Below, piece after piece: positions 35,424 to 57,322 of a stretch of 60,564 nt of DNA. The translations under genes and the position numbers were made by a program. How positions within the stretch are numbered: position 1 is the first letter of the stretch; each line of letters opens with the position of its first letter. Below the pieces are notes generated by a model that ran no database searches, had not been told where the DNA came from, and worked only from the letters and a program-made list of their open reading frames with translations. Origin of the DNA: Spirochaetota bacterium (GTDB lineage Bacteria; Spirochaetota; Spirochaetia; SZUA-6; Fen-1364); the NCBI GenBank assembly GCA_026398635.1, contig JAPLSM010000042.1, forward strand, positions 1-60,564. Reading direction: 5' to 3'.

Positions 35424-35431
35424 GATGCGAT

Positions 35432-44274: not shown

Positions 44275-45376
44275 CTACCGGCCCAGCCACTGCATCTTGA
44301 GCCACGCCTCGATGAACCCGTCGAGGCCCCCATCCATGACCGCCTGGATGTTGCCGACCTCGTACTTCGTGCGGTGGTCCTTCACGAGGGTGTAGGGCTG
44401 GAACGTGTACGAGCGGATCTGGCTGCCCCAGGCGATCTCCTTCTTCTCGGACCCGAGCTTCTCGCGCTCCCGGTCCCGCTCGCCCTTGTAGTGCTCGTAC
44501 AGGCGCGAGCGCAGCACCTTCATGGCAAAGGCCTTGTTCTTGAACTGGCTGCGCTCGTTCTGGCACTGCACCACGATGCCTGTGGACAGGTGCGTAATGC
44601 GCACCGCGCTGTCGGTCTTGTTGACGTGCTGGCCGCCGGCGCCGCCGGCCCGGTAGGTGTCGATGCGCAGCTCCTCGGGCTTGATGTCCACGTCGATGGT
44701 GTCGTCGAGTACCGGGAAGACGAACGCCGAGGCGAACGAAGTGTGACGGCGCGCGTTGGAGTCGAACGGCGAGATGCGCACGAGCCGGTGCACGCCGCTC
44801 TCCGACTTCAGGTACCCATAGGCGTAGTCGCCGTTCACCTGCACGGTGACGCTCTTGATGCCGCCCTCCGCTTCGAGCAGGTCGATGATGTCGACCTGGT
44901 AGCCGTGGCGTTCCGCCCACCGTGTGTACATGCGCAGCAGCATCTGCACCCAGTCGCACGCCTCGGTGCCTCCCGCGCCCGAGTGGATCGTGAGGAAGGC
45001 GGACGCGGGGTCGTTCTCGCCCGAGAGCAGCTCCAGCACCTTCAGCTCCGCGTACCGCCCCTCCAGGCGCCCGCAGGTTGCCGCGAGCTCCTCCTCGAGG
45101 GACGCATCGCCTTCCTCCGCAGCGAGCCGGTGGATGCCCGCGAGGTCGTCGAACTGCGAGCGAAGCCCCTGCCAGGGCTCGTAGCGTCGCTTCAACGCCT
45201 TCAGGCGCCCGAGCGTCTCGCCCGCGCGCTCCTTGTCCCCCCAGAAGTCCTGGCGGGCCGTCTCGCGCTCTATCTCCGCGATCTGCTGCTTCAGGGTCTC
45301 GGGGTCAAAGACCCCTCCAAGTCTCGTCGATCCGGGCGCCGAGTCCCTGGATCCTGGTCTCGAGTTCCGCGAGCAT
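44275..45376 (-). CDS. prfB: Peptide chain release factor 2, expressed via programmed +1 frameshift
   Basis: Frame 0: ATG 45376 ... AGG GGT CTT TGA (the stop is at 45307-45305). Frame +1 continues as GAC CCC GAG... into the 306-aa ORF-track product, which carries SPF (ISPFDS) and GGQ (GAGGQHVNK). CDS = join(45376..45308, 45306..44275) on the minus strand. Confidence 0.93.
45305..45320 (-). promoter_or_regulatory. RF2 autoregulatory +1 frameshift site
   Basis: The minus strand reads TGGAGGGGT-CTT-TGA-C: an internal Shine-Dalgarno-like GGAGGGG 2-3 nt upstream of the slippery CUU UGA C, the same as the canonical bacterial prfB site. Confidence 0.9.
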
Positions 45377-45379
45377 GTC

Positions 45380-45652
45380 CTACCTCGTCACCACCAGCCG
45401 GCGCCACCGTTTCTCTTTCAATACCGTGATCGCGAGCGTGCCGCCCACGGGGTACTGGTAGAACCGGAGGCTGTCGTCGGCGTCCATGACCCGGTCGAGG
45501 TCGTGCTTCAGCCGGCCCAGGGCGTCCTCGCTCACCGCCGCGCTTTCCCAAGCGTCCCCGAGTACCCGCTGGAACCCGTACCGGACCAGCAGCTCCTCCG
45601 CCGCGCGACGGTGGTCCTCCGCGGCGAACTCGCTGGCGACGGCCACGAACAT
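45380..45652 (-). CDS. Small Cas2-like / ferredoxin-fold protein (90 aa), function unknown
   Basis: The sequence is MFVAVASEFAAEDHRRAAEELLVRYGFQRVLGDAWESAAVSEDALGRLKHDLDRVMDADDSLRFYQYPVGG.... Its spacing and several signature residues resemble Cas2 by eye. The stop lies 3 nt before the prfB ATG. The start was chosen at the ATG at 45652, because the longer ORF-track version overlaps the FabK-like gene and is Arg/Pro-rich. There is no clear Shine-Dalgarno. Confidence 0.5.
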   Translation of the reverse strand: MFVAVASEFAAEDHRRAAEELLVRYGFQRVLGDAWESAAVSEDALGRLKHDLDRVMDADDSLRFYQYPVGGTLAITVLKEKRWRRLVVTR

Positions 45653-47040: not shown

Positions 47041-47961
47041 ATGCGACTCCGGACCTTTCCGCTGCTCCTCGCGCTCGCCGCGGCTTCAGCCGCCGCCCAG
47101 GTGGCGGGCCCGGCCGCCTCCGAGCTGACGGGCGAAGAGCAGCTCGCGGCCCGCATCACGGGCATCGCGGCCGCCGCGGCGGACGGCTCCGCCATCGAGG
47201 TGACCTTCGTGTCGTCCGATCCCCGGCGCGACCTCCTCGTGTTCTGGGGCACCGCGCCGATGACCACGGCCGAGGGCCTTCTGCGTTCCACCGCCAAGGC
47301 GCAGCTCGATGCCGGCGCCGTGCGCTACGCCGTCCCCGTGCTGCCGGGCACCGACTACTGGTTCGCCGTGCTCGACGCTGGACTGTACAAGGTGGGCGGT
47401 GTGCCCCTGGTGCCGGGCGAGAACACCACCGCCCGCGGAGTACGGGTACCGGCTGCTGCGGCCTCCTCCCCGGTGGCCGCTTCCACCCAGCGCAATCAAC
47501 CCCTTCCCTCCCTCCAGCTCGGCGTCTCGGTCAGCACCGGACGGGAGGTGGAGACGGGAGGCCTGCCGGAGGTCCCGACCGAGCGGGGCGTGTCCCCCAC
47601 GACCGCGCTGGCTATCGCCGAACTGCTGCGGGAAGCCGGACCGGTTCCCCGGCCGATTCTCAAGGTTCAGGTGCTGAGCGAGGACGTCGCAGGCGGCGAC
47701 CAGGTGCTGCAGAGCGTGGCTTCCGGCGCCCTCGCGAGCGGCGACTGGGCCGGCGCGGAAAAGAAGCTGAAGGATTTTTTGAGTCTTCGCCGCACGCCCG
47801 AGCTCAGGGCCCTGGCCCGGTTCTACCTGGGCCAGGCCTACTGGTTCCAGGGCCGGCTGCGCGAAGCGTTCTTCGAGTTCCTCGGGTGCGAGGACACGCT
47901 CCCCCGCGAGTCCCGTGCGTGGCAGGATGCCTGCCTCGGCGGGCTCGCGGCCCGCAGCTGA
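47041..47961 (+). CDS. Secreted hypothetical protein with C-terminal TPR-like module
   Basis: ATG at 47041 gives the signal peptide MRLRTFPLLLALAAASAAAQ. The C-terminal ..GDWAGAEKKLKDFL......ALARFYLGQAYWFQGRLREAFFEF is TPR/YbgF-like. Confidence 0.7.
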   Translation: MRLRTFPLLLALAAASAAAQVAGPAASELTGEEQLAARITGIAAAAADGSAIEVTFVSSDPRRDLLVFWGTAPMTTAEGLLRSTAKAQLDAGAVRYAVPVLPGTDYWFAVLDAGLYKVGGVPLVPGENTTARGVRVPAAAASSPVAASTQRNQPLPSLQLGVSVSTGREVETGGLPEVPTERGVSPTTALAIAELLREAGPVPRPILKVQVLSEDVAGGDQVLQSVASGALASGDWAGAEKKLKDFLSLRRTPELRALARFYLGQAYWFQGRLREAFFEFLGCEDTLPRESRAWQDACLGGLAARS

Positions 47962-48048
47962 CCATCCGCGTAGCGTAAGGGCCCTCGGCCGACCTCAGCC
48001 CTCCCTGGATTGAGTCGGCCTTCCGTCCATCCATGGACTCGGCCGACC

Positions 48049-50055
48049 TTAACCATCCTTGGTCTGGATGTCCACTGCTTTCTCGAAGCCGATGCTCAGG
48101 TGGTTCTCCCAGGCGGTATTCGGTCCGAGATCGAGGTCCCACATCGGCACCAGGCACTGGCACTGGTACTCGGGCTCCCCGGCGCCCGGTGGCTCGGGCA
48201 TGGTCTCGACCGGCAGGCTCCAGCAGCGGAACGGCGCGGCGGACGAGAGCGTGATGGACACGCCGTTCGGCACGTCGCGCAGGAGCAGCCCCGTGGCGGA
48301 CTCGATCTCGCGGGCGTCCGTGCCGATCTCCGTCGACGCGTCCTCGCCGATCAGGAAGAGGCGGCCGTCGCCGGCCGAACGCGATGCGAGGGACACGTTG
48401 ATTTCTACGCCGAGCCGCGTCCGAAGGCCCGTGTCGCCTCCGACGGCCACCCGGTAGTACACGTCGATCGAGCGGGGACGGAAGACGTAGCGCTTCTCGA
48501 TGCGCACCGCCGCCTCGCGGCCGCCGGCGCGCACGGGGCCCGCGGTGCACAGCAGCACCTCGGGCAGCGTGCGGTTCAGCTCCGCGGTCTGCCACACCGT
48601 GCGCCCGAAGACGGCGGAATCGGTCGTGCCCGCGGCGAAGTCCGCGAGGCCGGACGCGTCGTCGAGGAAATGGTCGATGAAGGCGTGGCGCGGCAGCCGC
48701 TCGGCGTCCCGCCGGTCGCGCTCGCGGGACACGAGGGTGTCGAGGTAGTTCCATGACGCCGGCAGGAAATCCAACTCGAACAGCGCGCCGCCCCGGGCGT
48801 GGAGGTACGCGTTCAGCTCGGAACCCTGGTACAGGTACTCGGTGCCATTGTCCGCGTCGAAGTCGACCCCGATGATCGACGGCGCAAAGATCTCCGTCGC
48901 TCGGATGATCTTCTCGGCCTCGATCAGCGAGCGGTAGACCGCCTTGCGCTGCACGTTCGCGTGCAGACCGCCCGAGCCGCCGAACCAGTAGGCGTGGTGG
49001 CTCTGGCCCTTCCACAGCTCGTTCTGCGCCGCGCGCTTGCGGTAGCGGTCGCCGCGCAGCTGGTTCACGAGCACGTGGGTGTGCATCATCTTCGCGTACA
49101 TGAGCCCGCTTTCGGGGTAGCGCACGAAGAACTGGCGGAAGTACCCGCCCGGCGGGGGCGTGCCCGCCCCGCCTTCTGCGGCGTCCCGGGCTTCGCGCCA
49201 GGCCTTCCGGCGGTCGGGGTCCAGCGACCACTCCGCCATGAGCTGCGACGAGCAGTTCGGGAAGTAGAGCCGGGAAGAGGGTGGTGAGGCACGAAGGTGC
49301 GCGCTCGGCGTCACCGGCTCGAGCCAGGACGCGTTCTCACGGACAAGGCCAAGCAGCTCCTCGAGCCAGCCATTCGAGGCGAACGGGGGACCCGTCCTGG
49401 CGCCGTCCCCGACGAGAGCGACGACCGTCGACGGTCCCCCGTAGGACTCGGCGATGGCGGCGAGCGCCGCCACGAGCCCGGCCGGGCTCATTGACGCGGC
49501 CCGGGCCAGGAGGCGCGTCTGCACGGGGATGACCGCCACGTGCTTGCCCTGGTCCTCGGCCACACAAGCGCGCAGCAGGTCGGAGCCTCCGGCGCCCGCG
49601 AGGCCGAGCTGCGTCTCGTCCAGGAACGTGTACTCCATGCCACCGGTCCGCAGCGTGGAGGCGAGCGACGGGTCCCACACCTGTTCGGCCAGCCAGCAGC
49701 CCCGGGGCCGGGTGCCAAAGCGCACCCTCAGCGACGTGGTCATCTTCTCCAGCTGGCCCAGCCGGTCGTTTGCGGGGATCATGGGGAGGATCGGGTCGTA
49801 GTACCCTCCGCCGACGATCTCCACCTGGCGCCGCCCCACCATTTCGGCGATCAGCATCACCAGCTCTGGGTGGCGCTCCTCGAGCCACTCGAGCAGCAGC
49901 CCGCTGTAATGCAGCGCGGCCGGCACCTCGGGGAAGGCGTAGAGTGTGCTGAGGAAGGGCCGGAGGGCTTCCTGGTAGACGGCCTCGGTCACCGCTTCCG
50001 GCTGCCCCAACGGAAGATGGCTGTGCGTCCCGATGATGACGGCCAGGCGGTTCAT
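48049..50055 (-). CDS. Glycoside hydrolase family 57 protein (alpha-amylase / 4-alpha-glucanotransferase type)
   Basis: N-terminus MNRLAVIIGTHSHLPLGQ, then ..HYSG.LLEWLEE..PE, ..EIVGGGYYDPILPMIP..DR..Q, and ..GCWLAEQVWDPSL......GMEYTFLDE. These are typical GH57 conserved regions. Confidence 0.88.
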   Translation of the reverse strand: MNRLAVIIGTHSHLPLGQPEAVTEAVYQEALRPFLSTLYAFPEVPAALHYSGLLLEWLEERHPELVMLIAEMVGRRQVEIVGGGYYDPILPMIPANDRLGQLEKMTTSLRVRFGTRPRGCWLAEQVWDPSLASTLRTGGMEYTFLDETQLGLAGAGGSDLLRACVAEDQGKHVAVIPVQTRLLARAASMSPAGLVAALAAIAESYGGPSTVVALVGDGARTGPPFASNGWLEELLGLVRENASWLEPVTPSAHLRASPPSSRLYFPNCSSQLMAEWSLDPDRRKAWREARDAAEGGAGTPPPGGYFRQFFVRYPESGLMYAKMMHTHVLVNQLRGDRYRKRAAQNELWKGQSHHAYWFGGSGGLHANVQRKAVYRSLIEAEKIIRATEIFAPSIIGVDFDADNGTEYLYQGSELNAYLHARGGALFELDFLPASWNYLDTLVSRERDRRDAERLPRHAFIDHFLDDASGLADFAAGTTDSAVFGRTVWQTAELNRTLPEVLLCTAGPVRAGGREAAVRIEKRYVFRPRSIDVYYRVAVGGDTGLRTRLGVEINVSLASRSAGDGRLFLIGEDASTEIGTDAREIESATGLLLRDVPNGVSITLSSAAPFRCWSLPVETMPEPPGAGEPEYQCQCLVPMWDLDLGPNTAWENHLSIGFEKAVDIQTKDG

Positions 50056-50065
50056 CGCGTCAATC

Positions 50066-50656
50066 CTACCGCACCAGGCCGGCGAGGAACACCTGGTCGA
50101 AGGCGGTGAAGGCGAGCGCGGCCAGCCCGGCCGAGACCAGCGCCCGCGGCATGCCGCTCATGGACGACGGTGCCTCCCCCGGCCCGAGCCGGTCCGCGAT
50201 GCCTGTGAGGATCGACAGGGCGACGAGCAACCCGGCGCCGGCGGCGAGCCCGGCGACCAGGCTCTCAGTGAGCCCGAATCCCGACCGGGCCACGACGAGC
50301 ACCGTACCGAGCGCGGCGACAGAGGCGCCCGACGGGCGGAGTACGGAGCCGAACAGGTCCGCGGTGCGAGACGTCACCCGGCGAAGGACGAGCCGGGCAA
50401 GCGAGGCGATGCCGGCCGTTGCAAGGATGATTGCGGGCGTCTGCATCCAGGCCACGCCGAGCGGCTCGAGCACATGCACGCGAAGGGCCCACATGGCAGC
50501 TGCGGAAGAGACCGCCAGCAGGGCGGACGCGAGACCGGCTGCTGCGGCACGCCGCAGGTCCAGCCCTTCGGTGGTTCCGGGATCGAGGCCGAGCATCCTA
50601 GCAAACAGCACGTGCTCCACCAGCGAAAAGGTGAGAAGGATACCCGGCCAGCTCAT
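50066..50656 (-). CDS. rnfA: RnfA-like membrane subunit (divergent, lacks both conserved Cys)
   Basis: 196 aa, and it aligns end to end by eye with E. coli RsxA. LVEHVLFARMLGLDPG corresponds to LVNNFVLVKFLGLCPF. SGMPRALVSAGLAALAFTAF corresponds to [20 protein letters not shown]. Its ATG overlaps the rnfE-like stop (ATGA 50653-50656). Confidence 0.75.
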   Translation of the reverse strand: MSWPGILLTFSLVEHVLFARMLGLDPGTTEGLDLRRAAAAGLASALLAVSSAAAMWALRVHVLEPLGVAWMQTPAIILATAGIASLARLVLRRVTSRTADLFGSVLRPSGASVAALGTVLVVARSGFGLTESLVAGLAAGAGLLVALSILTGIADRLGPGEAPSSMSGMPRALVSAGLAALAFTAFDQVFLAGLVR

Positions 50657-51321
50657 CCCGCGTCTCCCGGCGTCGTGCGACGAGCCCCCCGACGCGCAAC
50701 GAAGCTGACGAGACCCGCAAGGTACCCGGCTGCGATCAGGCCGGCGAACGGCGAGAGCAGGCTTCGGGCCGGCGCATTCGAAAGTCCGGGCAGGCGGAAC
50801 ACCCAGCCAACCGCGACGCCGGGGAGCGTGAAGGTGCCGGCTCCGAGTGCCTCGCGCACGAGTGCGGTCAGGCCGGCACCGCCGAGGAACGCGAGACCCG
50901 CGACCATCGCTCGTGCAGCGGCGCGCCGAGTCCGGTCTTTTGGCTGCGCGTCCGTCAGCACGGCTGCCGCGACGGGCCCCGACATGACGACTACGGTGAG
51001 AGGGAGGTAGATGCCGAGGTCCGCGCTCACCGAGGGCAGCCAGGTCAAAGCCGCGAGGTCGGCCCCGCACGCGAGCACGGCGCCGGCGAGGAGGACCGCG
51101 AGCGAGCCCACTGCGGGGGGTATCCTGTCGGCGACGAGAGCGGCGACGAGAGCCGTCGCGAGCAGCGACACGATCGCTGCGGCGGACAGCCATAGGGCAG
51201 CGGACACCGTAACCGCGGCCGCGAGCGACGGGACGATCGCGGCGATCAGCTCGGGCAGGCCGGCGGTTCGGTCAGGGACCGGCGCAGCCGCGGACGGCAG
51301 CGGAGCTTGCGGATTCATCAT
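50653..51321 (-). CDS. rnfE: RnfE-like membrane subunit (divergent, lacks both conserved Cys)
   Basis: 222 aa. [20 protein letters not shown] corresponds to RsxE [35 protein letters not shown] corresponds to LGSLREIIGNGTL. Its ATG overlaps the rnfD stop (ATGA 51318-51321). Confidence 0.72.
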   Translation of the reverse strand: [222 protein letters not shown]

Positions 51322-52379
51322 GCGGACCTCCGGGGCCGGGTCCACCGGTCCAGCAGCGGGGAGAGGCAATTGCTGAGCAGCACCGCGAGGCCGATGCCCT
51401 CCACCGCGGAGCCGTGGAACCGCAGGAGGAAGGTGAGCGCGCCGATTATGGCTCCGAACGCAATCCTCCCCCACCGGGTCATGGGCGAGGTGACGGGATC
51501 GGTGGCCATGTAAAAACCCGCAAGCACGATCCCGCCCGAGAAGAGGTGGAACACCGCGCCGCCCCGGAAGAGGCCGTCCCCCGCCGGGATCCCTCCCAGG
51601 GCCCAAGCGAGCAGCGCGAAGACCCCGAACAGGGCAGCGGGTATCTCCCATCGGATGATGCGCCGCCACAGCAGTACCGCGGCGCCGGCCGCGAGCAGGA
51701 TCACTGACGCCTCGCCGATGCATCCCGCGTGAAGGCCGGCGAGCATGTCGAGCAGTCCCCGTGGCGCGGCCATGCCGAGCGGCGACAGCAGGTGTGCGTT
51801 CAGCCACGAGACCACGGCATCGTCGGTACGGCTGAACGGGTAGCCGGCGGCAGTGAGCGCGGCGAACGGTCCCCCGGCGGATGCTCCCGCTGCCGCGGCG
51901 GCGGCCAGGGGCGTGGCCGCGGACACGGCGTCGGCGGACAGGAACCGCGTCGGCAGCCACGCGGACATCGCCGCCGGCCACGACAGCGCGACGAAAGCCC
52001 GGCCGGCGAGCGCGGGGTTCATCCAGTTCCTGCCCAACCCACCGAACCCCTGCTTGACCACCGCGATGCCGAAGCCGGCTGCAGCGGCCGGCACGTACCA
52101 TGGGGATCCGGGCGGCATCGAAAGACCGACGAGCAATCCGGTCAGGAAGGCGGTGCCATCGTCGAGCGTGAACCGGCGTCTGAAGCCGGCCGTCACGAGC
52201 TCGGTTACGAGCGCCGAGCCGATGGCAGCGGCGAGCACCGTGGCCGCGGCTGGGCCGTAGCAGAGCACACCCCAGCCTGCGGCCGGCAGCAGGCAGGCGG
52301 CCGCGATCAAGGCGAAAGCCGGCGTGCGCATTCCCGCGTGCAGGTGCGGAGCGGCCGCGACGGCGACTCTCGGGCTCAC
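51318..52379 (-). CDS. rnfD: RnfD-like membrane subunit
   Basis: Strong by-eye similarity to RsxD: SPH.H, DGTAFLTGLLVGLSMPP..PW, KQ.FGGLG.N.MNPA, DAVSAATPL (the flavinylation-type Thr is kept), FYMATDPVTSP, AVLLSN...PL.D. The GTG start overlaps the rnfC stop (GTGA 52376-52379). Confidence 0.88.
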   Translation of the reverse strand: MSPRVAVAAAPHLHAGMRTPAFALIAAACLLPAAGWGVLCYGPAAATVLAAAIGSALVTELVTAGFRRRFTLDDGTAFLTGLLVGLSMPPGSPWYVPAAAAGFGIAVVKQGFGGLGRNWMNPALAGRAFVALSWPAAMSAWLPTRFLSADAVSAATPLAAAAAAGASAGGPFAALTAAGYPFSRTDDAVVSWLNAHLLSPLGMAAPRGLLDMLAGLHAGCIGEASVILLAAGAAVLLWRRIIRWEIPAALFGVFALLAWALGGIPAGDGLFRGGAVFHLFSGGIVLAGFYMATDPVTSPMTRWGRIAFGAIIGALTFLLRFHGSAVEGIGLAVLLSNCLSPLLDRWTRPRRSA

Positions 52380-53710
52380 TCAGCACCCCCGGCCGATCGG
52401 ACCCGGGCTTCGCGCAGCCCGGCCGCAAGGGGGATGCGCGACGGGCACGCGTACGAGCAGCAGCCGCACCCCGTGCACTCCCCGAGCCCTTCCGTTGAAG
52501 CCCGTGCGAGCGCTCCGGACTCTGCGATCTCGTGCAGCCGCACGGGCACGAGCCCCCAGGGACAGGCATCGAGACACCGACCGCATCGCAGGCAGGGCCG
52601 CCGCCGGCCCCGAGCCAGGTCGCCCCGGGCGAGAAGCAGTACCGCGGGGACTTCCTGCGTGACGGGAACCTCCTGCCAGTCCGCGCTGCCCGGAAAAGCG
52701 TGACCCTGCATCGCGCCGCCGAACACGACCGCGGCCGGCCGGGCCACGAGGCCCCCGGCCTCCTCCACCAGCTCTCCGGCACGGGTACCGACGCGAACCT
52801 TGAGGTTCCGGGGCGCCCCGAGCGCCGGGCCGGCCACGGTGACGATGCGTTCGAAGCAGGGCTTGCCAAGAACCACAGCATCGCGCAGCGCGGCGAACGA
52901 GGAGACGGAGGTCACCACCGCGCCCAAGTCCAGGGCGGTGCCCCCGCGGGGCACTTCCCGGCCGAGCAGCGCCGCCGCGAGACGCGTTTCCTCTTCCTGC
53001 GGGTAGCGTCCGTCGAAGACCGCCACCTCGAGGGTTCCTCCCGACGCGCGGAACGCGGCCGCGACCGCGTCCGCAGCCTGCGCAGCATCGCCGGTCACGG
53101 CCAGGACGACCCGCCGGCACCCGAGCACCGCCTGCGCGATCCGCAGGCCTTCGGCGACATCCCCGGGCCGGTCCGCCAGCTGCCGGAACTCCGCGGCGAG
53201 CCACGGTTCGCTTTCCACGGCATTCGCCAGGAGCACCTGTGGAGACCGGCCCCGAGCCGTGGCGAACCGCACGGCGAGCGGCTCGCAATGGCCGTCGAGC
53301 GCAACGCCCGCCTCCCCGACGATTGTGAGGATTTGCGAGGGTCCAAGATGCGTCCAATCGCGCACGGGCCGAGGCCGGCCCGACTGGGCGAAAGTTCCGC
53401 CGAGCTCGATCACGACGGCCTGGCCGGTCGTGCCGTCGCTCAGGAGGACCTCGCGGACCTCGACCACCGCGCCGGGGATCGACGCGTGGACAGGCGCTGA
53501 ACTCTGATCGGGGGGGCGGCCGATCAGCTCCCCCTCCGCCACCCGGTCGCCGGGCGCGACGAGGCAGACAGCGGCCGAACCCCCGCGCCGACGCATCGGC
53601 ACCACAGCCACCGACGGCATGGCCGCGTTGACGATGGGGGCACGTCGGCTCTCCTGGCTGTGCGGCGGGAGATGAATCCCGCCCCGCGGGAACGTGAGGG
53701 GTTGCGTCAT
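52376..53710 (-). CDS. rnfC: RnfC-like subunit (2x[4Fe-4S] motifs kept; nucleotide/flavin loop apparently degenerate)
   Basis: N-terminal FPRGGIHLPPH corresponds to RsxC FNGGIHPPE. LLANAVESEPWLAAE corresponds to LIINAAECEPYITAD. The C-terminus has CLRCGRCLDACP and CTGCGCCSYACPSRIPL. Its ATG overlaps the upstream stop (ATGA 53707-53710). Confidence 0.82.
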   Translation of the reverse strand: MTQPLTFPRGGIHLPPHSQESRRAPIVNAAMPSVAVVPMRRRGGSAAVCLVAPGDRVAEGELIGRPPDQSSAPVHASIPGAVVEVREVLLSDGTTGQAVVIELGGTFAQSGRPRPVRDWTHLGPSQILTIVGEAGVALDGHCEPLAVRFATARGRSPQVLLANAVESEPWLAAEFRQLADRPGDVAEGLRIAQAVLGCRRVVLAVTGDAAQAADAVAAAFRASGGTLEVAVFDGRYPQEEETRLAAALLGREVPRGGTALDLGAVVTSVSSFAALRDAVVLGKPCFERIVTVAGPALGAPRNLKVRVGTRAGELVEEAGGLVARPAAVVFGGAMQGHAFPGSADWQEVPVTQEVPAVLLLARGDLARGRRRPCLRCGRCLDACPWGLVPVRLHEIAESGALARASTEGLGECTGCGCCSYACPSRIPLAAGLREARVRSAGGAE

Positions 53711-55245
53711 CGGGTGCGGCGCCTGCGGGCTGGCTCAGTTATCGCCCAAAGGCCGAGGCGCATCAAGAGTCGCCGCGCTGCCGGCCCGACGAGCGGCGCG
53801 CCAAGCAGGGCAAGGCATGCGAGCGCTGCCGGGACCGCCTGGAGGAGCGCGGCCCAGGGAGCCCGGAAGCGGACTTCCACCGCCCGGCGCTGTTCGATCA
53901 GCAGCCGTTCGACCGTACCGGACCGGAAACCGGCGACAGCCAGGTCGAGCCAGCCAGGATCGAACCGCACCACGGTGCGAGGCGCCTCGATGAGCGATCC
54001 GCCGCTCCCGTCCGCATACTCGCGCAGACGCACCCGTTCCTCTCGGGCCGGAAGCAGGGGCGAGGTGCCCTCGGCGGCACCGAATGCGATTGTCTGCAGC
54101 GAAGCGGCATGGCCGACAGCTTCCGCCAACCCCGGCAGCCGGCCTGCATCCCTGGCCCGAACAGCTGCCTCGATGCCGGTCCGGCTGCCGGCTCCTGCGA
54201 GGGACACCTGGCGCGGCAGCGGCACCTGCAGCCGGGACAAGCCCGCGGGCACCGTCACGAGGAGCCCGGCCGCCAGGGCGGCTGCGAGTGGAGCGAACAC
54301 CGTACGCCGAGGCGGGGCCAGGATGGGCACCGGCTCGAACCGGCCCCTGCCCTGCCGCAACGGGGAGCGCAGCTGCAGGAGCGGCCAGGCGAGCTCAGCC
54401 AGCAGCTCGAGGCACAGCATGCTCGCGCCCATCCGTGTCGCCCGGTACACGGCAGCATCACCCGTGGCGATGACCGCGACGGCGACGCCGAGGAGCACGC
54501 CGATGCGCATCCCGGCCCGCCCGGACTGCGGGGAGGACCGGCGGCCATGCGCGTGCCGTACCCCGTCAGCCGCGCGGGGCATCCAGAAGTACAGCGCAGT
54601 GCAGACGAAACACAGGTCCGACGGCCCGCCGTTCAGGAGGCCTGGCAGCCAGGCGAAAATGCCGGCCGCCGCGAGCAGCAAGCCTCGACGAGTCTCCCGG
54701 CGCAGGCACCAGGCTACCGCAAGAGCGAAACCGAGCGCAGCGACCGGCACGGAGATCCTCGCGAGAGGCTCGAGCTCGAGCAGCTGCCAGCTGCCCCGCG
54801 GCACGCCGTCAGCATCGAACGTCCGGGCGAAGCGCAGCCAGGCCGCTATCCGACCGCGGGTCGCCGGCACGTAGGCTGCGACGAGCCTGCGACCGCCGTC
54901 CCAGGCCTGGAAATACCTGGGCACGCCTGACAGCCAGGCATCCATGCGCGAGTCGAGCGGGTCGAGACGGGCCTCCAGGGCGGCGACCCGCAGCGTCTCG
55001 ATCTCGGAGAAGACGTCGATCCTGACGATCGCGGTGGCCCGGCTGACCGATCCCGGAGCGGCTGCCTGCAGGGCCGCTTCCACGGCAGGGGCCGCGGCCT
55101 CGCGGTAGAGCAGCACGTACCAACCCCGCCAGCCCGAGGTCGGACGGACCGCCGGGGACGGGATCTCGGGCACGAGCATCAGCGCCAATATCACGGAGAG
55201 CACGAACGGCAGGTTGCGGGGATCCAACACGATGCGTCGCAGCAT
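53707..55245 (-). CDS. Uncharacterised polytopic membrane protein (512 aa)
   Basis: An N-terminal TM helix, a ~150-aa soluble segment, a cluster of about 6 TM helices (residues ~170-340), a second soluble segment, and a C-terminal TM helix. No family was recognised. It is translationally coupled to rnfC. Confidence 0.7.
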   Translation of the reverse strand: MLRRIVLDPRNLPFVLSVILALMLVPEIPSPAVRPTSGWRGWYVLLYREAAAPAVEAALQAAAPGSVSRATAIVRIDVFSEIETLRVAALEARLDPLDSRMDAWLSGVPRYFQAWDGGRRLVAAYVPATRGRIAAWLRFARTFDADGVPRGSWQLLELEPLARISVPVAALGFALAVAWCLRRETRRGLLLAAAGIFAWLPGLLNGGPSDLCFVCTALYFWMPRAADGVRHAHGRRSSPQSGRAGMRIGVLLGVAVAVIATGDAAVYRATRMGASMLCLELLAELAWPLLQLRSPLRQGRGRFEPVPILAPPRRTVFAPLAAALAAGLLVTVPAGLSRLQVPLPRQVSLAGAGSRTGIEAAVRARDAGRLPGLAEAVGHAASLQTIAFGAAEGTSPLLPAREERVRLREYADGSGGSLIEAPRTVVRFDPGWLDLAVAGFRSGTVERLLIEQRRAVEVRFRAPWAALLQAVPAALACLALLGAPLVGPAARRLLMRLGLWAITEPARRRRTR

Positions 55246-55257
55246 GAGCGCGGACCG

Positions 55258-55740
55258 TCAGAGGCTGCAGAACGCGACAGCGATGAAGAAGCCGATCAGC
55301 GCGCCCACGATGACCTCGGGACCCGTGTGGCCGTGGATCTCCTTGACGGGCTTCACCCGGTGCTTCCGGTCCCGGGCGAGGTACCGGAGGAGCTGGTTGA
55401 TGGCCCGCGCCTGCATCCCGGCCGCCCGGCGCACGCCGAGGGCGTCCCGGAAGATGATGATGGCGTAGAAGAGCGTCACGATGAACAGCGGCGTGTCCAC
55501 CCCCTGCACGAAGCCCACGGACGTGGCCAGCGCCGACACGACTGCCGAGTGGCTGCTCGGCATCCCGCCGGTGGTCCAGAACAGGTTGAGGAGAATGCCC
55601 TTGGCAGTGCGCGGCCGGTTACGAAGCATCGCGACGAGGGACTTCAGGATCTGCGCGGTGAACCAGCTCGAGAACGCGGAGAGGAACACGGGGTGCGCGA
55701 ACAGTCCGGTGAGTTGGTCGACGACGTGCAGGGTGGCCAC
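55258..55740 (-). CDS. Divergent PAP2 family membrane protein (YuiD/DUF212-like)
   Basis: ..FSSWFTAQILK........GGMPSSHSAVVSALATSVG......LF.V.L.FA.I...DA.GVRR..G.QA.....L... is characteristic of the acid-phosphatase/vanadium-haloperoxidase-related DUF212 family. GTG start at 55740; the start is uncertain. Confidence 0.8.
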   Translation of the reverse strand: MATLHVVDQLTGLFAHPVFLSAFSSWFTAQILKSLVAMLRNRPRTAKGILLNLFWTTGGMPSSHSAVVSALATSVGFVQGVDTPLFIVTLFYAIIIFRDALGVRRAAGMQARAINQLLRYLARDRKHRVKPVKEIHGHTGPEVIVGALIGFFIAVAFCSL

Positions 55741-55821
55741 CGGCGCGCAGTCTCCCGCCGCCCACTGTGTTTGTCAAGCCAGCGACGTGCGAAGCACGCG
55801 GCGATAGCCCAGGCGTAGCAA

Positions 55822-55851
55822 TCGACAATCTTGACAAATCGTACGTATACT
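55822..55851 (+). promoter_or_regulatory. Putative sigma70-type promoter of the radical SAM gene
   Basis: TCGACA (55822-55827), an 18-nt spacer, then TATACT (55846-55851). An alternative reading is TTGACA (55831-55836), 17 nt, then TAGTTT. It lies about 55 nt upstream of the ATG at 55907. Confidence 0.4.
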
Positions 55852-55906
55852 GTTAGTTTGCTCTGTAGAAGCCATCATAGCGGCATTGCTGCAAGGAGGG
55901 GTACGT

Positions 55907-57322
55907 ATGATACGGAAGGTGAGCATCCTCGAGGTGAAAAGCGAACACCTCCACATCTTCTCGCGATTCGAGCTTCCCCGGATCGGCGCCACGCTCCTCG
56001 CGACGATCCTGCACGACCGCGGCCTCGACGCCGAGGCCCTGTTCCTGAGCCGCGCCGCCCTCCTCGCCCGGCGCATCGAGACCGACCTCGCGGGCATCTC
56101 GACCATCACCGCCACCGCGCCCGCATCCTACGCCGTGGCGGACGACCTGCGTCGGCGGGGCATCCCGGTGGTCTTCGGGGGGCCCCACGCGAGCTTCCAG
56201 CCGGAGGAGGCACTCACGCACGGCGACTACTGCCTCGTGGGCGAGGCCGAGCAGTCGCTGCCGATGCTCGTGGAGGCCCTGAACGGCGAGCGGACGCTGG
56301 ACGAGGTGCCGGGGCTGGTGTGGCGCCGGGAGGGCATGGTGGTCCGCAACGCCCCCGCACGCCCCATCGACGACCTCGACAGCCTGCCGTTCCCCGACTA
56401 CAGCCTCCTCGACATGGGGCGCCGGAGGATGGGAGCCTTCCTGCTCGGAGGCTCGATCGTGCCGGTCCAGACCTCCCGGGGCTGCCCCTACGACTGCTCC
56501 TTCTGCTCGGTCACGGGCATGTTCGGCAAGCGCTACCGGTTCCGCTCCACAGCGAACGTCATCGCCGAACTCGAGCGCTACCGGCCGAACCAGAACATCT
56601 TCTTTTACGACGACAATTTCGCCGCCAACTCCCGGCACACCCGTGAGCTGCTCCAGGCCATGATCGAGCGGAACTTCCGCTTCCACTGGTCAACCCAGGT
56701 GCGCGCGGACGTCGCCCGCGACCCCGACCTCCTGGACCTGATGGTCCGCGCCGGATGCAGCACCGTGTTCATCGGTTTCGAGAGCGTGGACCCGCGGGCA
56801 CTCGCGGAGATGCACAAGGGTCAGTCGGTCGAGGAGATGCGCCACGCGGTGCACGAGCTGCACCGGCGCGGTGTCCACGTACACGGCATGTTCGTCTTCG
56901 GGTTCGACGCCGACAGCCCCGACACGGTGCACGCCACCGTGGACTTCGCCATCCGGGAGCGTATCGACTCGGTCCAGTTCCTGCTGCTGACCCCGCTGCC
57001 CGGCTCTGCGCTGTTCGAGCGCCTCTCGGCCGAGGGTCGGCTGAACGACCGGGACTGGGACGACTACGACGCGCACCACGTCACGTTCCGGCCCACCGGC
57101 TTCACGGCCTGGAAGCTTCAGCTCGCCCAGATCAGAGCCCATGCCCGTTTCTACTCGTGGGCTCGGGTGCTTGGCCGGCTGCTGCACGGCAAGCTCGCCG
57201 GGTTCCTCGTCGGCGTCTACGCCCACGGGCTCAACCGGCGCTGGAAGTGGAAGGAACGACGGTACCTCAGGGCCCTGCGCCGGCCGATGAACGCCGGCCG
57301 GACGCTGCCGGCCGCGGGCTGA
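55907..57322 (+). CDS. B12-binding-domain radical SAM protein (class B), substrate unknown
   Basis: AAGGAGGGG lies 6 nt upstream of the ATG at 55907. N-terminal Rossmann-like cobalamin-binding-type domain (..GISTITATAP....A..LRRRGIPVVFGGPHAS). Radical SAM cluster motif SRGCPYDCSFCS. TIM-barrel motifs FFYDDNF, VFIGFES, VHGMFVFG. Confidence 0.85.
   Translation: MIRKVSILEVKSEHLHIFSRFELPRIGATLLATILHDRGLDAEALFLSRAALLARRIETDLAGISTITATAPASYAVADDLRRRGIPVVFGGPHASFQPEEALTHGDYCLVGEAEQSLPMLVEALNGERTLDEVPGLVWRREGMVVRNAPARPIDDLDSLPFPDYSLLDMGRRRMGAFLLGGSIVPVQTSRGCPYDCSFCSVTGMFGKRYRFRSTANVIAELERYRPNQNIFFYDDNFAANSRHTRELLQAMIERNFRFHWSTQVRADVARDPDLLDLMVRAGCSTVFIGFESVDPRALAEMHKGQSVEEMRHAVHELHRRGVHVHGMFVFGFDADSPDTVHATVDFAIRERIDSVQFLLLTPLPGSALFERLSAEGRLNDRDWDDYDAHHVTFRPTGFTAWKLQLAQIRAHARFYSWARVLGRLLHGKLAGFLVGVYAHGLNRRWKWKERRYLRALRRPMNAGRTLPAAG

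What the first reader, a model, noticed from the sequence alone, without database searches (positions are those of the whole stretch)
50066..53710. Rnf-derived C-D-E-A module lacking rnfG, rnfB and the Fe-S cysteine ligands of RnfA/RnfE
Four minus-strand genes are joined by 4-nt start/stop overlaps (GTGA 52376-52379, ATGA 51318-51321, ATGA 50653-50656). By eye they align with E. coli RsxC, RsxD, RsxE and RsxA.

- **Missing genes.** Canonical operons are rnfCDGEAB or rnfABCDGE. Here D overlaps E, so there is no room for rnfG. The gene 10 nt after rnfA is a GH57 glycosidase, so there is no rnfB.
- **Lost cysteines.** Each small membrane subunit normally has two Cys-containing motifs (RsxA FLGLCPF and TTNCAVLG; RsxE LGLCPLLAVT and VTNCIVVG). 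These supply the ligands of the intramembrane Fe-S centre in Nqr/Rnf structures. The aligned segments here read MLGLDPG and PSGASVAALG in the RnfA-like protein, and [10 protein letters not shown] and LTVVVMSGP in the RnfE-like protein. All four Cys are gone.
- **RnfC-like protein.** It keeps both CxxCxxCxxxCP motifs. The segments aligned to GLGGAGFPT and AAECEPY read EAGVALDGH and NAVESEPW; this alignment is less certain.
- **RnfD-like protein.** It is well conserved, including DAVSAATPL aligned to RsxD DGISQATPL, so the flavinylated Thr is kept.

Overall, most of the canonical electron path is missing. That argues for a repurposed or non-canonical Rnf-derived complex rather than a standard ferredoxin:NAD+ oxidoreductase.
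Basis: partly seen in the sequence, partly recalled or inferred. Interest (0 to 1): 0.75.

Follow-up and report, generated by a model that had tools for sequence, protein, structure and literature searches.

The report
Stripped-down spirochaete Rnf-like membrane complex
Four translationally coupled genes encode a cut-down relative of the Rnf ion-pumping redox enzyme that has lost two subunits, its membrane iron-sulfur centre and probably its NADH-flavin site, yet selection keeps it intact in a group of spirochaete-like bacteria, so it cannot be doing the textbook reaction.

Summary
On the minus strand, rnfC-, rnfD-, rnfE- and rnfA-like genes (50066-53710) are joined by 4-nt overlaps, with no rnfG or rnfB in the operon or elsewhere in the 60-kb window.

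- **Lost features.** The RnfA-like protein has no cysteine at all and the RnfE-like protein has one, at a non-ligand position. The four-Cys membrane [2Fe-2S] centre therefore cannot exist. The residues implicated in redox-driven Na+ pumping are also replaced. The FMN loop of RnfC (G[LM]GGAxFP) is degenerate.
- **Kept features.** Both [4Fe-4S] motifs of RnfC, the flavinylated Thr of RnfD and its riboflavin ligands are retained.
- **Not pseudogenes.** The genes are intact in four genomes with dN/dS of 0.22-0.43.
- **Conserved cluster.** The module sits in DUF212, a novel 512-aa membrane protein, C-D-E-A, GH57.
- **Relatives.** Relatives, some labelled Spirochaetota, form a graded series of G, B and Cys losses.
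- **Prior literature.** The cluster resembles the uncharacterised "noncanonical Rnf" of Treponema pallidum (tp0147-tp0153).

My best reading is a one-way RnfC-RnfD transmembrane electron path with RnfA/E kept as a cluster-free scaffold. That mechanism is inferred, not shown. I class it as a new variant of a known kind.

The parts
55258..55740 (-). DUF212 (divergent PAP2 family) membrane protein. It is the first gene of the conserved cluster, 12 nt upstream of the 512-aa ORF.
   Evidence: Pfam PF02681 at 2e-41. It occupies the same position in L053, L055, L056, L057, L006 and L044. dN/dS is 0.21-0.28.
53707..55245 (-). 512-aa polytopic membrane protein with no known family. Its stop overlaps the rnfC start (ATGA), making it a probable lineage-specific subunit or partner.
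   Evidence: - No Pfam or NCBIfam hit.
- 28 homologues at 52-87% identity, all annotated hypothetical.
- It lies directly upstream of rnfC in every locus whose upstream flank I examined. This includes the Spirochaetales MAG L006, whose 544-aa ORF matches at hhalign 98.3%, E 2e-14.
- The AF2 model (pLDDT 65 overall; 74 for residues 1-300) shows TM1, an alpha/beta domain at 40-155, then 5 TM helices.
- Foldseek returns only RND pumps, and only weakly: best E 1e-3 to 2.5e-3, TM-score 0.2-0.35.
- dN/dS is 0.41-0.55.
52376..53710 (-). RnfC-like cytoplasmic subunit (444 aa). Two [4Fe-4S] motifs are kept at 52559-52594 and 52442-52477. The FMN loop is degenerate (ALDGHCEP, 53279-53302).
   Evidence: TIGR01945 at 303 bits against a cut-off of 246. 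PDB 7zc6_C at E 2.7e-68. Motif table against canonical RnfC.
51318..52379 (-). RnfD-like membrane subunit (353 aa). It keeps the flavinylation motif DAVSAATPL (T156, 51906-51932) and the equivalents of the riboflavin ligands N123 and D249.
   Evidence: PF03116 at 4.5e-89. TIGR01946 at 225 bits against a cut-off of 207. PDB 7zc6_D at 4.5e-49. Motif table.
50653..51321 (-). RnfE-like membrane subunit (222 aa) without cluster ligands. V30 replaces Cys (51211-51237). The TM4 loop carries a 6-residue insertion and no Cys (50959-51006).
   Evidence: PF02508 at 6.8e-11. TIGR01948 at 31 bits against a cut-off of 213. hhalign to canonical RnfE at 94.7%, E 6e-8. Residue table. A single Cys at position 85.
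50066..50656 (-). RnfA-like membrane subunit (196 aa) with no cysteine at all. D25 (50576-50593) and V113 (50306-50338) replace the ligands. E88, T110, T111, Y105 and Q85 are also replaced.
   Evidence: PF02508 at 2.3e-15. TIGR01943 at 81 bits against a cut-off of 229. Gap-free alignment to 9eri_A at E 3.6e-18. Residue tables.
48049..50055 (-). GH57 alpha-amylase/4-alpha-glucanotransferase-like gene, 10 nt downstream of rnfA. It is a conserved neighbour and the last gene of the cluster.
   Evidence: Pfam PF03065, PF09094 and PF09095. It has the same position in L053, L055-L057 and L064. In L044 it follows rnfB.

Best explanation
This is a selected, stripped-down derivative of the Rnf complex belonging to a cluster that recurs in Spirochaetota-labelled MAGs and related contigs. 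The cluster reads DUF212, a 512-aa membrane protein, rnfC-D-E-A, GH57.

**Shown.**
- The ferredoxin-side half of the canonical electron loop has been deleted. That half is the RnfB clusters, then the RnfA/E [2Fe-2S] centre, then the RnfG FMN.
- The NADH/FMN loop of RnfC is degenerate.
- What remains redox-competent by sequence is a single linear path: the two [4Fe-4S] clusters of RnfC on the cytoplasmic side, then riboflavin, then the covalently bound FMN of RnfD on the periplasmic side.

**Inferred.**
- The complex no longer works as a ferredoxin:NAD+ oxidoreductase or as a redox-driven Na+ pump of the A. woodii type.
- Instead it acts as a one-way transmembrane electron conduit between a cytoplasmic low-potential carrier that docks on RnfC and an unidentified periplasmic partner.
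- RnfA/E are kept as a cluster-free structural core, possibly with a cation site built on the conserved Asp25.
- The 512-aa protein supplies periplasmic domains in the place vacated by RnfG and RnfB.
For: **Losses.**
- There is no rnfG or rnfB in the operon or the window.
- RnfA has 0 Cys and RnfE has 1 non-ligand Cys.
- The ligand and Na+-coupling residues are invariant in six canonical loci. These are RnfA C25, Q85, E88, Y/F105, P107, L108, T110, T111, N112 and C113, and RnfE C25, R67, N107, C108 and E115. In the window clade nearly all of them are replaced, including every ligand Cys. Their roles are described in PMC11889175.
- The RnfC loop G[LM]GGAxFP is invariant in canonical loci but reads ALDGHCEP here.

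**Retentions.**
- All 8 Fe-S Cys of RnfC are conserved in every relative.
- RnfD keeps T156, N123 and D249.
- RnfC and RnfD still pass the NCBIfam cut-offs, whereas RnfA and RnfE fall far below them.

**Selection.**
- All ORFs are intact in the window, L055, L057 and L053.
- dN/dS is 0.25-0.32 for C, 0.24-0.27 for D, 0.34-0.43 for E and 0.22-0.34 for A among the close genomes (window, L055, L057). The neighbours DUF212 and GH57 give 0.16-0.28.

**Order of events.**
- L006 and L059 keep G with 2-3 Cys.
- L044 keeps B with 1 Cys and has an unrecognisable ORF in the G slot.
- The L053/L064 group lacks G and B, and its Cys decay among sequences 73-84% identical. The ligand pairs are C/C, C/V, S/V and Y/T.
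- The window clade has none of these features.

**Precedent for single-path Rnf derivatives.**
- The two-subunit Nqr/Rnf-like systems are proposed to carry unidirectional electron flow (PMC8238504, PMC11334425).
- In the Firmicute-like locus L060, C-D-G-E-A lacks RnfB and all four A/E Cys, yet keeps an intact RnfC FMN loop and the RnfG SGAT motif.
Against: - No donor, acceptor or ApbE/Ftp gene is identified, and none lies in the window.
- Loss of FMN/NADH binding by RnfC is inferred from one loop only.
- Without RnfG, the RnfD flavin has no known partner, so the remaining path may be inactive or may serve as a sensor.
- RnfA is under purifying selection as strong as RnfD. Asp/Glu at position 25 is conserved in 14 of 15 clade members. 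Both points suggest RnfA/E do more than scaffold.
- L053 keeps all four Cys without an adjacent G or B. These genes could therefore be encoded elsewhere in such genomes.
- dS may be underestimated in a 70% GC genome with strong codon bias.
- The RND-like resemblance of the 512-aa protein is weak.
Confidence: 0.4

Rival explanations
1. The RnfA/E pair has become a redox-independent cation (Na+/H+) channel or transporter. A buried carboxylate (Asp25 of RnfA) plus nearby Ser/Thr replace the [2Fe-2S] centre as the ion site. RnfC-RnfD then act as a redox sensor or regulator, or the complex couples ion flow to the RND-like 512-aa partner.
For: - Asp/Glu at the C25 position occurs in 14 of 15 window-clade sequences.
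- It recurs in about 12 of 28 independent Cys-less 50%-identity clusters, with Ser at C113 in about 18 of 28. Cys->Asp needs two nucleotide changes, which hints at selection.
- RnfA dN/dS is as low as that of RnfD.
- In A. woodii, Na+ passes through RnfA/E next to the cluster.
- Foldseek hits for the 512-aa protein are exclusively PMF-driven RND pumps.
Against: - Other ion-pathway residues (E88, T110, T111; RnfE R67, E115) are also replaced by non-liganding residues.
- One clade member has Val at position 25 (P0030).
- The RND resemblance is weak (TM-score 0.2-0.35), and no proton-relay triad is conserved.
- This reading does not explain the strict retention of eight Fe-S Cys in RnfC or the flavin sites in RnfD.
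Confidence: 0.2
2. It is still a working ferredoxin/flavodoxin:NAD+ oxidoreductase ion pump. This is what has been proposed for the T. pallidum noncanonical Rnf. The missing parts (RnfG, RnfB, ApbE) would be encoded elsewhere, or replaced by the 512-aa protein and unrecognised cofactor sites.
For: - The published model for T. pallidum assumes an Rnf-type pump fed by flavodoxin (PMC4436053, PMC7512555).
- L053 keeps four Cys without an adjacent G or B.
- Only 60 kb of the genome is visible.
Against: - No Cys are available for the RnfA/E cluster, and that cluster is the coupling site of the pump.
- The RnfC FMN loop is degenerate.
- The 512-aa protein has one invariant Cys, one invariant His and no Fe-S, haem or flavinylation motif.
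- RnfA/E score 31-81 bits against NCBIfam cut-offs of 213-229.
Confidence: 0.05
3. RnfC-RnfD remain the only functional unit, and RnfE/RnfA plus the 512-aa protein are slowly decaying passengers: relaxed selection heading towards pseudogenes.
For: - E and the 512-aa protein have the highest dN/dS (0.34-0.55).
- E and A have diverged far below family cut-offs.
- Cys ligands decay piecemeal in relatives.
Against: - All ORFs are intact with conserved length and 4-nt coupling in four genomes down to 34-43% identity.
- About 30 metagenomic RnfA-like sequences are nearly all full length, mostly 196 aa.
- dN/dS is well below 1, and for A it is comparable with DUF212.
- Packing motifs such as VAGLAAGAG and the loop prolines are invariant.
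Confidence: 0.05
4. The cluster acts in envelope or carbohydrate physiology, using the Rnf remnant only as a membrane anchor or assembly platform. The conserved neighbours fit such a role: a DUF212 PAP2-like phosphatase, a membrane protein with RND-like topology, and a GH57 glucanotransferase.
For: - DUF212, the 512-aa protein and GH57 are strictly syntenic neighbours across loci at 34-90% identity.
- tp0147-tp0153 are reported as co-transcribed in T. pallidum, as data not shown in PMC4436053.
Against: - Synteny alone does not show a functional link.
- GH57 and DUF212 are separated from the core by 10-12 nt rather than overlapping it.
- In L044, rnfB lies between rnfA and GH57.
- Retention of the Fe-S and flavin motifs argues for redox chemistry.
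Confidence: 0.1

Closest known systems
Canonical Rnf complex (RnfABCDGE; structures 9eri A. woodii, 7zc6 C. tetanomorphum, 8ahx A. vinelandii)
   Same: - Homologous C, D, E and A subunits in the C-D-(G)-E-A gene order.
- RnfC N-terminal barrel, 51K-like domain and two [4Fe-4S] motifs.
- RnfD flavinylation Thr and riboflavin ligands.
- RnfA aligns without gaps over residues 6-187.
   Different: - No RnfG and no RnfB.
- No [2Fe-2S] ligands.
- Na+-coupling residues replaced.
- RnfC FMN loop degenerate.
- An extra 512-aa membrane protein translationally coupled to rnfC.
Treponema pallidum 'noncanonical Rnf' cluster tp0147-tp0153 (Deka et al. 2015, PMC4436053; 2020, PMC7512555)
   Same: - It is a spirochaete cluster in which only RnfC (TP0152), RnfD (TP0151) and an RnfE-like protein (TP0149, about 30% identity) are recognisable.
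- These sit among unassigned membrane proteins, and no RnfG-type FMN motif was found.
- The authors report co-transcription of tp0147-tp0153.
- Spirochaetota-labelled MAG loci L006 and L044 share the DUF212, hypothetical protein, rnfC-D arrangement with the window.
   Different: - I could not compare it directly with T. pallidum sequences here.
- The T. pallidum cluster has a gene (tp0150) in the G slot, whereas the window has none.
- The published model still treats it as a flavodoxin:NAD+ ion pump. The window's version cannot use the known pumping mechanism.
- The loss of the A/E cysteines was not reported in the papers I read.
Na+-NQR (NqrABCDEF)
   Same: The membrane core is homologous (NqrB/D/E = RnfD/E/A). 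It also sets a precedent for a cofactor-free homologue kept as a structural subunit: NqrA is an RnfC relative without FMN or Fe-S.
   Different: - Here the opposite parts are lost. RnfC keeps its Fe-S clusters, while A/E lose their cluster.
- There is no NqrC or NqrF.
- nqr models score far below their cut-offs.
Two-subunit Nqr/Rnf-like systems (Meheust et al. 2021 PMC8238504; Huang et al. 2024 PMC11334425)
   Same: These are partial Rnf/Nqr derivatives that retain only one of the two transmembrane electron paths. They are proposed to move electrons one way from the cytosol to an extracytosolic flavin.
   Different: - Those consist of an RnfD-NqrF fusion plus an RnfG-like protein. They lack the RnfD flavinylation site and occur mainly in Actinobacteria and CPR.
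- The window has separate RnfC and RnfD subunits with the flavinylation motif, keeps cluster-free E and A, and has no FMN_bind protein.
RnfB-less, Cys-less rnfCDGEA cluster in a low-GC (Firmicute-like) metagenome contig
   Same: There is no rnfB. RnfA (D25/S113) and RnfE (F/S) lack all four ligands. Asp sits at the C25 position.
   Different: It keeps a canonical RnfC FMN loop and a large RnfG with the SGAT motif, so an NADH-to-extracytosolic-FMN path is complete. It has no 512-aa partner, DUF212 or GH57.

Membership tests
Rnf complex (ferredoxin:NAD+ oxidoreductase, RnfABCDGE) | Six subunits A, B, C, D, E and G encoded together | tested here: not met
   Only C, D, E and A are present. The D/E and C/D genes overlap, and GH57 starts 10 nt after A. 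There is no FMN_bind, RnfB or ApbE in the 60.5-kb window. The rest of the genome was not visible.
Rnf complex (ferredoxin:NAD+ oxidoreductase, RnfABCDGE) | Four conserved Cys (two in RnfA, two in RnfE) ligating the intramembrane [2Fe-2S] cluster | tested here: not met
   RnfA-like has 0 Cys. RnfE-like has 1 Cys at a non-ligand position. The aligned residues are D25/V113 in RnfA and V30 plus a Cys-free insertion in RnfE.
Rnf complex (ferredoxin:NAD+ oxidoreductase, RnfABCDGE) | NuoF-like FMN/NADH site in RnfC (glycine-rich loop G[LM]GGAxFP) | tested here: not met
   The loop is invariant in six canonical loci and A. woodii, but reads ALDGHCEP, DLDGYPQP or ALDGHPEP in the window clade. This is sequence-level only; binding was not measured.
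Rnf complex (ferredoxin:NAD+ oxidoreductase, RnfABCDGE) | Two [4Fe-4S] motifs in the RnfC C-terminal ferredoxin domain | tested here: met
   CLRCGRCLDACP and CTGCGCCSYACP are conserved in all relatives.
Rnf complex (ferredoxin:NAD+ oxidoreductase, RnfABCDGE) | RnfD covalent-FMN Thr in a Dxx[ST]xA[TS] motif, plus riboflavin ligands (A. woodii N123, D249) | tested here: met
   DAVSAATPL (T156), with N and D retained. Flavinylation itself was not testable.
Rnf complex (ferredoxin:NAD+ oxidoreductase, RnfABCDGE) | Each subunit reaches the curated NCBIfam cut-off for its subfamily model | tested here: inconclusive
   C (303 against 246) and D (225 against 207) pass. E (31 against 213) and A (81 against 229) fail, although both pass the Pfam PF02508 gathering score.
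Rnf complex (ferredoxin:NAD+ oxidoreductase, RnfABCDGE) | Fd:NAD+ oxidoreductase activity coupled to Na+/H+ translocation | not testable with these tools
   This needs biochemistry. The residues required for coupling in A. woodii are replaced.
Spirochaete noncanonical Rnf cluster (T. pallidum tp0147-tp0153 type) | Conserved cluster: hypothetical membrane protein, rnfC, rnfD, (G slot), rnfE-like, rnfA-like, in a spirochaete genome | tested here: met
   The arrangement matches Spirochaetales MAG L006 and Spirochaetota MAG L044, including DUF212 and a homologue of the 512-aa protein (hhalign 98.3%).
Spirochaete noncanonical Rnf cluster (T. pallidum tp0147-tp0153 type) | Orthology to the T. pallidum proteins TP0148-TP0153 themselves | not testable with these tools
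   No T. pallidum sequences were reachable. The link rests on the description in PMC4436053.
Na+-NQR | NqrA-F subunit set; NqrF FAD/2Fe-2S subunit; cofactor-free NqrA | tested here: not met
   The nqr NCBIfam models score far below their cut-offs. For example, nqrB scores 141 against 350 and nqrE scores 38 against 248. There is no NqrC or NqrF, and the C subunit keeps its Fe-S motifs.
Two-subunit Nqr/Rnf-like system (Meheust 2021) | RnfD/NqrB domain fused to an NqrF-type NAD-binding domain (PF00175), next to an FMN_bind protein or ApbE | tested here: not met
   RnfD-like is a single-domain 353-aa protein with PF03116 only. There is no FMN_bind or ApbE nearby.

The most novel reading that the evidence does not exclude
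A whole subfamily of Rnf-derived complexes, in Spirochaetota-labelled relatives and independently in other phyla, may have abandoned the semicircular, ion-pumping electron loop.

- The RnfC-RnfD half would be kept as a one-way transmembrane wire.
- The RnfA/E [2Fe-2S] pocket would be rebuilt around a conserved carboxylate into a non-redox cation site.
- A new membrane protein with RND-like topology would replace RnfG and RnfB.

If the Treponema pallidum cluster is of this type, the proposed flavin-based Rnf 'pump' of the syphilis spirochaete does not generate its ion gradient by the known mechanism.
Probability: 0.3. Interest if true: 0.8.

Novelty: new variant of a known kind. Interest (0 to 1): 0.62.

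Why it matters
- **A natural dissection of the enzyme.** Recent structures place the intramembrane [2Fe-2S] cluster of RnfA/E at the heart of redox-driven Na+ pumping in Rnf and Nqr. A complex kept by selection that lacks that cluster, RnfG, RnfB and probably the NADH site separates the two halves of the enzyme. It shows that the RnfC-RnfD half, with a cluster-free A/E core, has a use of its own.
- **A graded series of intermediates.** The graded series of losses in related contigs gives intermediates that can be compared experimentally.
- **Bearing on T. pallidum.** The published energy-conservation model for Treponema pallidum relies on an uncharacterised 'noncanonical Rnf' pump. If its subunits share these losses, the model needs revision.
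- **A possible new membrane function.** Asp/Glu recurs at the former ligand position in many independent Cys-less lineages. This points to a possible new, non-redox function for this membrane fold.

Tried and rejected
- **Genome scan for close relatives.** The organism is therefore inferred only as a high-GC relative of Spirochaetota-labelled MAGs.
- **Organism names.** The listing of cluster members gave no organism names or accessions.
- **Third homologue search.** A search with a profile of Cys-less RnfA representatives was pulled towards canonical Firmicute RnfA. Only 4 of 120 hits lacked a Cys, but it made P0221 and P0242 available for context look-ups.
- **Structure of the 512-aa protein.** The C-terminal half is poorly predicted. 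Foldseek gives only weak RND-pump matches (best E 1e-3 to 2.5e-3, TM-score 0.2-0.35, rmsd about 20 A). I treat this as a topological resemblance, not homology. I found no RnfG-like or RnfB-like fold and no cofactor motif.
- **Promoter and terminator scan of 47600-56100.** It found nothing above chance inside the cluster.
- **Pseudogene hypothesis.** Rejected on intact ORFs and dN/dS.
- **G or B fused inside the ORFs.** Rejected. The Pfam architectures are single-family, and lengths match canonical subunits.
Rejected as evidence, because the E-x-EP core is conserved.
- **Literature.** I found no description of Cys-less RnfA/E. The 2025 Rnf/Nqr review does not mention such variants or spirochaetes.

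Full report
**1. What is in the sequence**

The window is about 70% G+C. On the minus strand, seven genes are tightly packed:

| Gene | Coordinates | Size |
|---|---|---|
| DUF212 | 55258-55740 | 160 aa |
| unannotated membrane protein | 53707-55245 | 512 aa |
| rnfC-like | 52376-53710 | 444 aa |
| rnfD-like | 51318-52379 | 353 aa |
| rnfE-like | 50653-51321 | 222 aa |
| rnfA-like | 50066-50656 | 196 aa |
| GH57 | 48049-50055 | 668 aa |

- A fourth, ATGA at 53707-53710, couples the 512-aa ORF to rnfC.
- DUF212 and GH57 are separated from the core by 12 and 10 nt.
- The flanking genes are divergent or convergent, so the seven genes form one likely transcription unit.
- A consensus promoter and terminator scan found nothing informative.

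**2. Family assignment**

| Subunit | Pfam | NCBIfam bits vs cut-off |
|---|---|---|
| RnfC | RnfC_N 4e-21; Complex1_51K 1e-23; Fer4 dicluster | TIGR01945: 303 vs 246 |
| RnfD | PF03116 4.5e-89 | TIGR01946: 225 vs 207 |
| RnfE | PF02508 6.8e-11 | rnfE model: 31 vs 213 |
| RnfA | PF02508 2.3e-15 | rnfA model: 81 vs 229 |

C and D are good Rnf subunits. E and A belong to the Rnf-Nqr membrane-subunit family but are strongly divergent.

**3. The cysteine losses are rigorous**

- RnfA-like aligns without a single gap to residues 6-187 of the solved A. woodii RnfA (9eri_A, E 3.6e-18). The ligands C25 and C113 correspond to D25 and V113.
- RnfE-like aligns to solved RnfE only weakly as a single sequence (E 0.007).
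- A profile of the clade aligns to a profile of canonical RnfE with 94.7% probability (E 6e-8). This puts V30 at the first ligand. The second ligand falls in a 6-residue insertion without Cys.
- Independently of any alignment, RnfA-like contains no cysteine and RnfE-like contains one (C85), away from both motifs. A four-Cys [2Fe-2S] centre is therefore impossible.

**4. The Na+-coupling apparatus is also gone**

- Kumar et al. (PMC11889175) show that reduction of the A/E cluster attracts Na+ and drives the inward/outward switch. They identify these residues:
  - RnfA: E88, T110, T111, Y105 and Q85.
  - RnfE: R67, E115 and N107.
- These positions are invariant in six canonical loci from Firmicutes, Synergistales, Gammaproteobacteria and one spirochaete.
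- In the window clade the RnfA positions read R88, G110, A111, V105 and S85. RnfE E115 and N107 are replaced by non-equivalent residues, and R67 has no conserved counterpart.

**5. RnfC and RnfD**

- Both CxxCxxCxxxCP motifs of RnfC are conserved in every relative examined.
- The glycine-rich loop G[LM]GGAxFP is different. By established knowledge of NuoF/Nqo1, it binds FMN. RnfC's FMN site is NuoF-like (PMC9588780).
  - It is invariant in canonical RnfC.
  - It reads ALDGHCEP in the window, with similar degenerate versions in the clade.
- RnfD keeps the flavinylation motif DAVSAATPL (T156) and the two residues that hydrogen-bond riboflavin in A. woodii, N123 and D249.

**6. No G or B**

- Nothing can be encoded between D and E, or between A and GH57.
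- Pfam scans of 37 further ORFs across the window found only housekeeping genes, such as Lon, ClpC/McsB, EF-P, LeuA, RecJ and ABC transporters.
- tblastn with RnfG and RnfB from relatives found nothing (best E above 0.1; the RnfB 'hits' are RnfC's own Fe-S motifs).
- The rest of the genome is unknown.

**7. Not pseudogenes**

- About 30 metagenomic RnfA-like proteins at 59-85% identity are nearly all full length, mostly 196 aa. None has a Cys at either ligand position.
- All seven genes are intact in three further contigs (L055, L057, L053).
- Pairwise dN/dS (NG86) among the close genomes (window, L055, L057) is listed below. Comparisons with the distant L053 give higher ratios (0.47-0.57 for C, D, E and A; 0.71 for the 512-aa protein) at saturated dS.

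| Gene | dN/dS |
|---|---|
| rnfC-like | 0.25-0.32 |
| rnfD-like | 0.24-0.27 |
| rnfE-like | 0.34-0.43 |
| rnfA-like | 0.22-0.34 |
| 512-aa protein | 0.41-0.55 |
| DUF212 | 0.21-0.28 |
| GH57 | 0.16-0.20 |

- Codon bias in a high-GC genome probably depresses dS, so the true ratios are, if anything, lower.

**8. Evolutionary context**

The order DUF212, hypothetical protein of about 515 aa, C, D, E, A, GH57 recurs in L052, L053 and L055-L057. Further downstream lie prfB, a CheY-like gene, a PEGA-domain gene and ftsY. L064 carries the C-D-E-A-GH57 part.

Two MAGs labelled Spirochaetales (L006) and Spirochaetota (L044) share the DUF212, homologue, rnfC-rnfD part. The L006 544-aa ORF matches the 512-aa family at hhalign 98.3%, E 2e-14.

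These relatives form a series:

| Locus or group | A/E Cys kept | RnfG | RnfB | RnfC FMN loop |
|---|---|---|---|---|
| L059 | 3 | present | contig ends at rnfA | degenerate |
| L006 | 2 | present | contig ends just after rnfA | degenerate |
| L044 | 1 | 152-aa ORF with no family in the G slot | present | degenerate |
| L053/L064 group | variable (see below) | absent | absent | near-canonical |
| window clade | 0 | absent | absent | degenerate |

- In the L053/L064 group, RnfA sequences only 16-27% different carry ligand pairs C/C, C/V, S/V and Y/T.
- The most economical reading is that G and B were lost first. The cluster ligands then drifted.

**9. Breadth**

- An exhaustive HMMER search of 1.84 billion representatives with the clade's RnfA profile gave 4072 relatives.
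- Among the 148 nearest that I analysed, 67 lack at least one ligand Cys and about 30 lack both.
- Many share an 'AFD-type' signature with the window protein: N-terminal M[ST][YW]xGI and C-terminal AFDxxxLxxLxG.
- In Cys-less sequences, the C25 position is Asp or Glu in about 12 of 28, and C113 is Ser in about 18 of 28.
- Asp/Glu25 is kept in 14 of 15 window-clade members.
- A low-GC, Firmicute-like contig (L060) carries rnfC-D-G-E-A without rnfB. All four A/E Cys are lost, but the RnfC FMN loop and RnfG are intact.
- Cys-less A/E is thus a recurrent state, apparently associated with loss of the ferredoxin-side input.

**10. The 512-aa partner**

- It has no family hit.
- Only clade-restricted homologues were found by sequence search.
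- It has one invariant Cys, one invariant His and no cofactor motif.
- AlphaFold models (pLDDT 65 for the whole protein; 74 for residues 1-300) give an N-in TM helix and an alpha/beta domain (residues 40-155, periplasmic by the positive-inside rule). Five TM helices follow, then a poorly predicted second extracytoplasmic region and a final TM helix.
- Foldseek against the PDB returns only RND transporters, with weak scores.
- I regard it as a lineage-specific membrane subunit of unknown fold class. It possibly occupies the space left by the TM anchors and periplasmic domain of RnfG and RnfB.

**11. Mechanism**

Shown:
- The canonical loop cannot operate. That loop runs Fd, RnfB, A/E [2Fe-2S], RnfG FMN, RnfD FMN, riboflavin, RnfC Fe-S, FMN, NAD+.
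- The only cofactor sites conserved by sequence form one linear path from the RnfC Fe-S clusters to the periplasm-facing FMN of RnfD.

Inferred, at about 40% confidence:
- The complex is a one-way transmembrane electron conduit.
- A/E serve as a cluster-free structural core.
- This is analogous in logic to the unidirectional two-subunit Nqr/Rnf-like systems (PMC8238504, PMC11334425) and to the L060 type.

Main rival, at about 20%:
- A/E have been rebuilt around Asp25 into a non-redox cation pathway.

I consider a working Fd/Fld:NAD+ pump with missing parts supplied in trans, and decay towards pseudogenes, to be unlikely.

**12. Relation to the literature**

- Deka et al. (PMC4436053) described a 'noncanonical Rnf' in T. 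pallidum (tp0147-tp0153).
  - RnfC, RnfD and an RnfE-like protein are recognisable.
  - No RnfG-type flavinylation motif was found.
  - The flanking membrane proteins are unassigned.
- Later papers keep it as a flavodoxin-driven pump in the energy model (PMC7512555).
- Full-text searches found no report that RnfA/E ligands are missing in any lineage. The 2025 Rnf/Nqr review does not mention such variants.
- I could not reach T. pallidum sequences. Orthology to tp0148-tp0153 is therefore a well-motivated inference, not a result.

**13. Verdict**

- It is a new variant of a known kind. It is an extreme, selection-maintained reduction of Rnf, within a cluster type already flagged as noncanonical but never analysed at this level.
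- Interest is moderate to high. It gives a natural experiment on which half of Rnf can stand alone. It also gives a concrete, checkable challenge to the proposed Rnf pump of pathogenic treponemes.

Noticed in passing
window 44275-45387 (-), site at about 45306-45312: The prfB (RF2) gene carries the classical programmed +1 frameshift site CTT TGA C, preceded by a Shine-Dalgarno-like GGAGGGG. This is why ORF listing shows a 306-aa ORF plus an upstream fragment.
   Followed up: partly
L019 5216-11325 (Spirochaetes MAG Zod_Metabat.1046): This is a different non-canonical Rnf. RnfA/E keep all four Cys and RnfG is present. However, RnfC has a deletion of the FMN loop, RnfD lacks the flavinylated Thr (FSFEYPL) and has D249->E, and RnfB is a 691-aa protein that continues beyond its ferredoxin part into a region I judged by eye, untested, to be GltD-like NAD(P)H-oxidoreductase. 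The nucleotide site may have moved to the RnfB side.
   Followed up: partly
L060 5797-11865 (ENA ERZ27245261, GC 38%): A Firmicute-like rnfC-D-G-E-A cluster without rnfB, followed by DUF4015. RnfA (D25/S113) and RnfE (F/S) have lost all four cluster ligands. RnfC keeps GMGGEAFP, and the 344-aa RnfG keeps SGAT. It is a candidate one-way path from NADH to extracytosolic flavin.
   Followed up: partly
L062 611-2510; L063 504-1696: An RnfE / RnfA (D25/T113, Cys-less) pair is directly followed by an NrfA-like multihaem cytochrome c552 gene. This is another unusual Rnf-derived context.
   Followed up: no
proteins P0077-P0222: Among the 148 analysed 50%-identity representatives nearest the window-clade RnfA profile, 67 lack at least one [2Fe-2S] ligand and about 30 lack both. 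The first ligand is replaced by Asp/Glu in about 12 of 28, and the second by Ser in about 18 of 28. A distinct 'AFD-type' RnfA subfamily (C-terminal AFDxxxLxxLxG) contains the window protein.
   Followed up: partly
L053, L064 and proteins P0033-P0037: This group of contigs lacks rnfG and rnfB. RnfA proteins only 16-27% different from each other carry ligand pairs C/C, C/V, S/V and Y/T. The cluster ligands appear to be decaying among close relatives.
   Followed up: yes
window 16296-19570 (+): Two adjacent or overlapping ORFs each carry an MptE-like (DUF115, motility-accessory-factor type) domain. The gene boundaries in this stretch are unclear.
   Followed up: no
window 32754-36568 (-): A McsB-like ATP:guanido phosphotransferase gene sits next to a ClpC/ClpB-type AAA+ chaperone. 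This is a protein-arginine-phosphorylation quality-control pair that I associate mainly with Firmicutes (from memory, not checked here).
   Followed up: no
L044 8764-9222 (+): A 152-aa ORF occupies the rnfG slot between rnfD and rnfE. It has an N-terminal TM helix but no FMN_bind hit and no SGAT motif. It may be a degenerate RnfG remnant, and a candidate counterpart of T. pallidum tp0150.
   Followed up: partly
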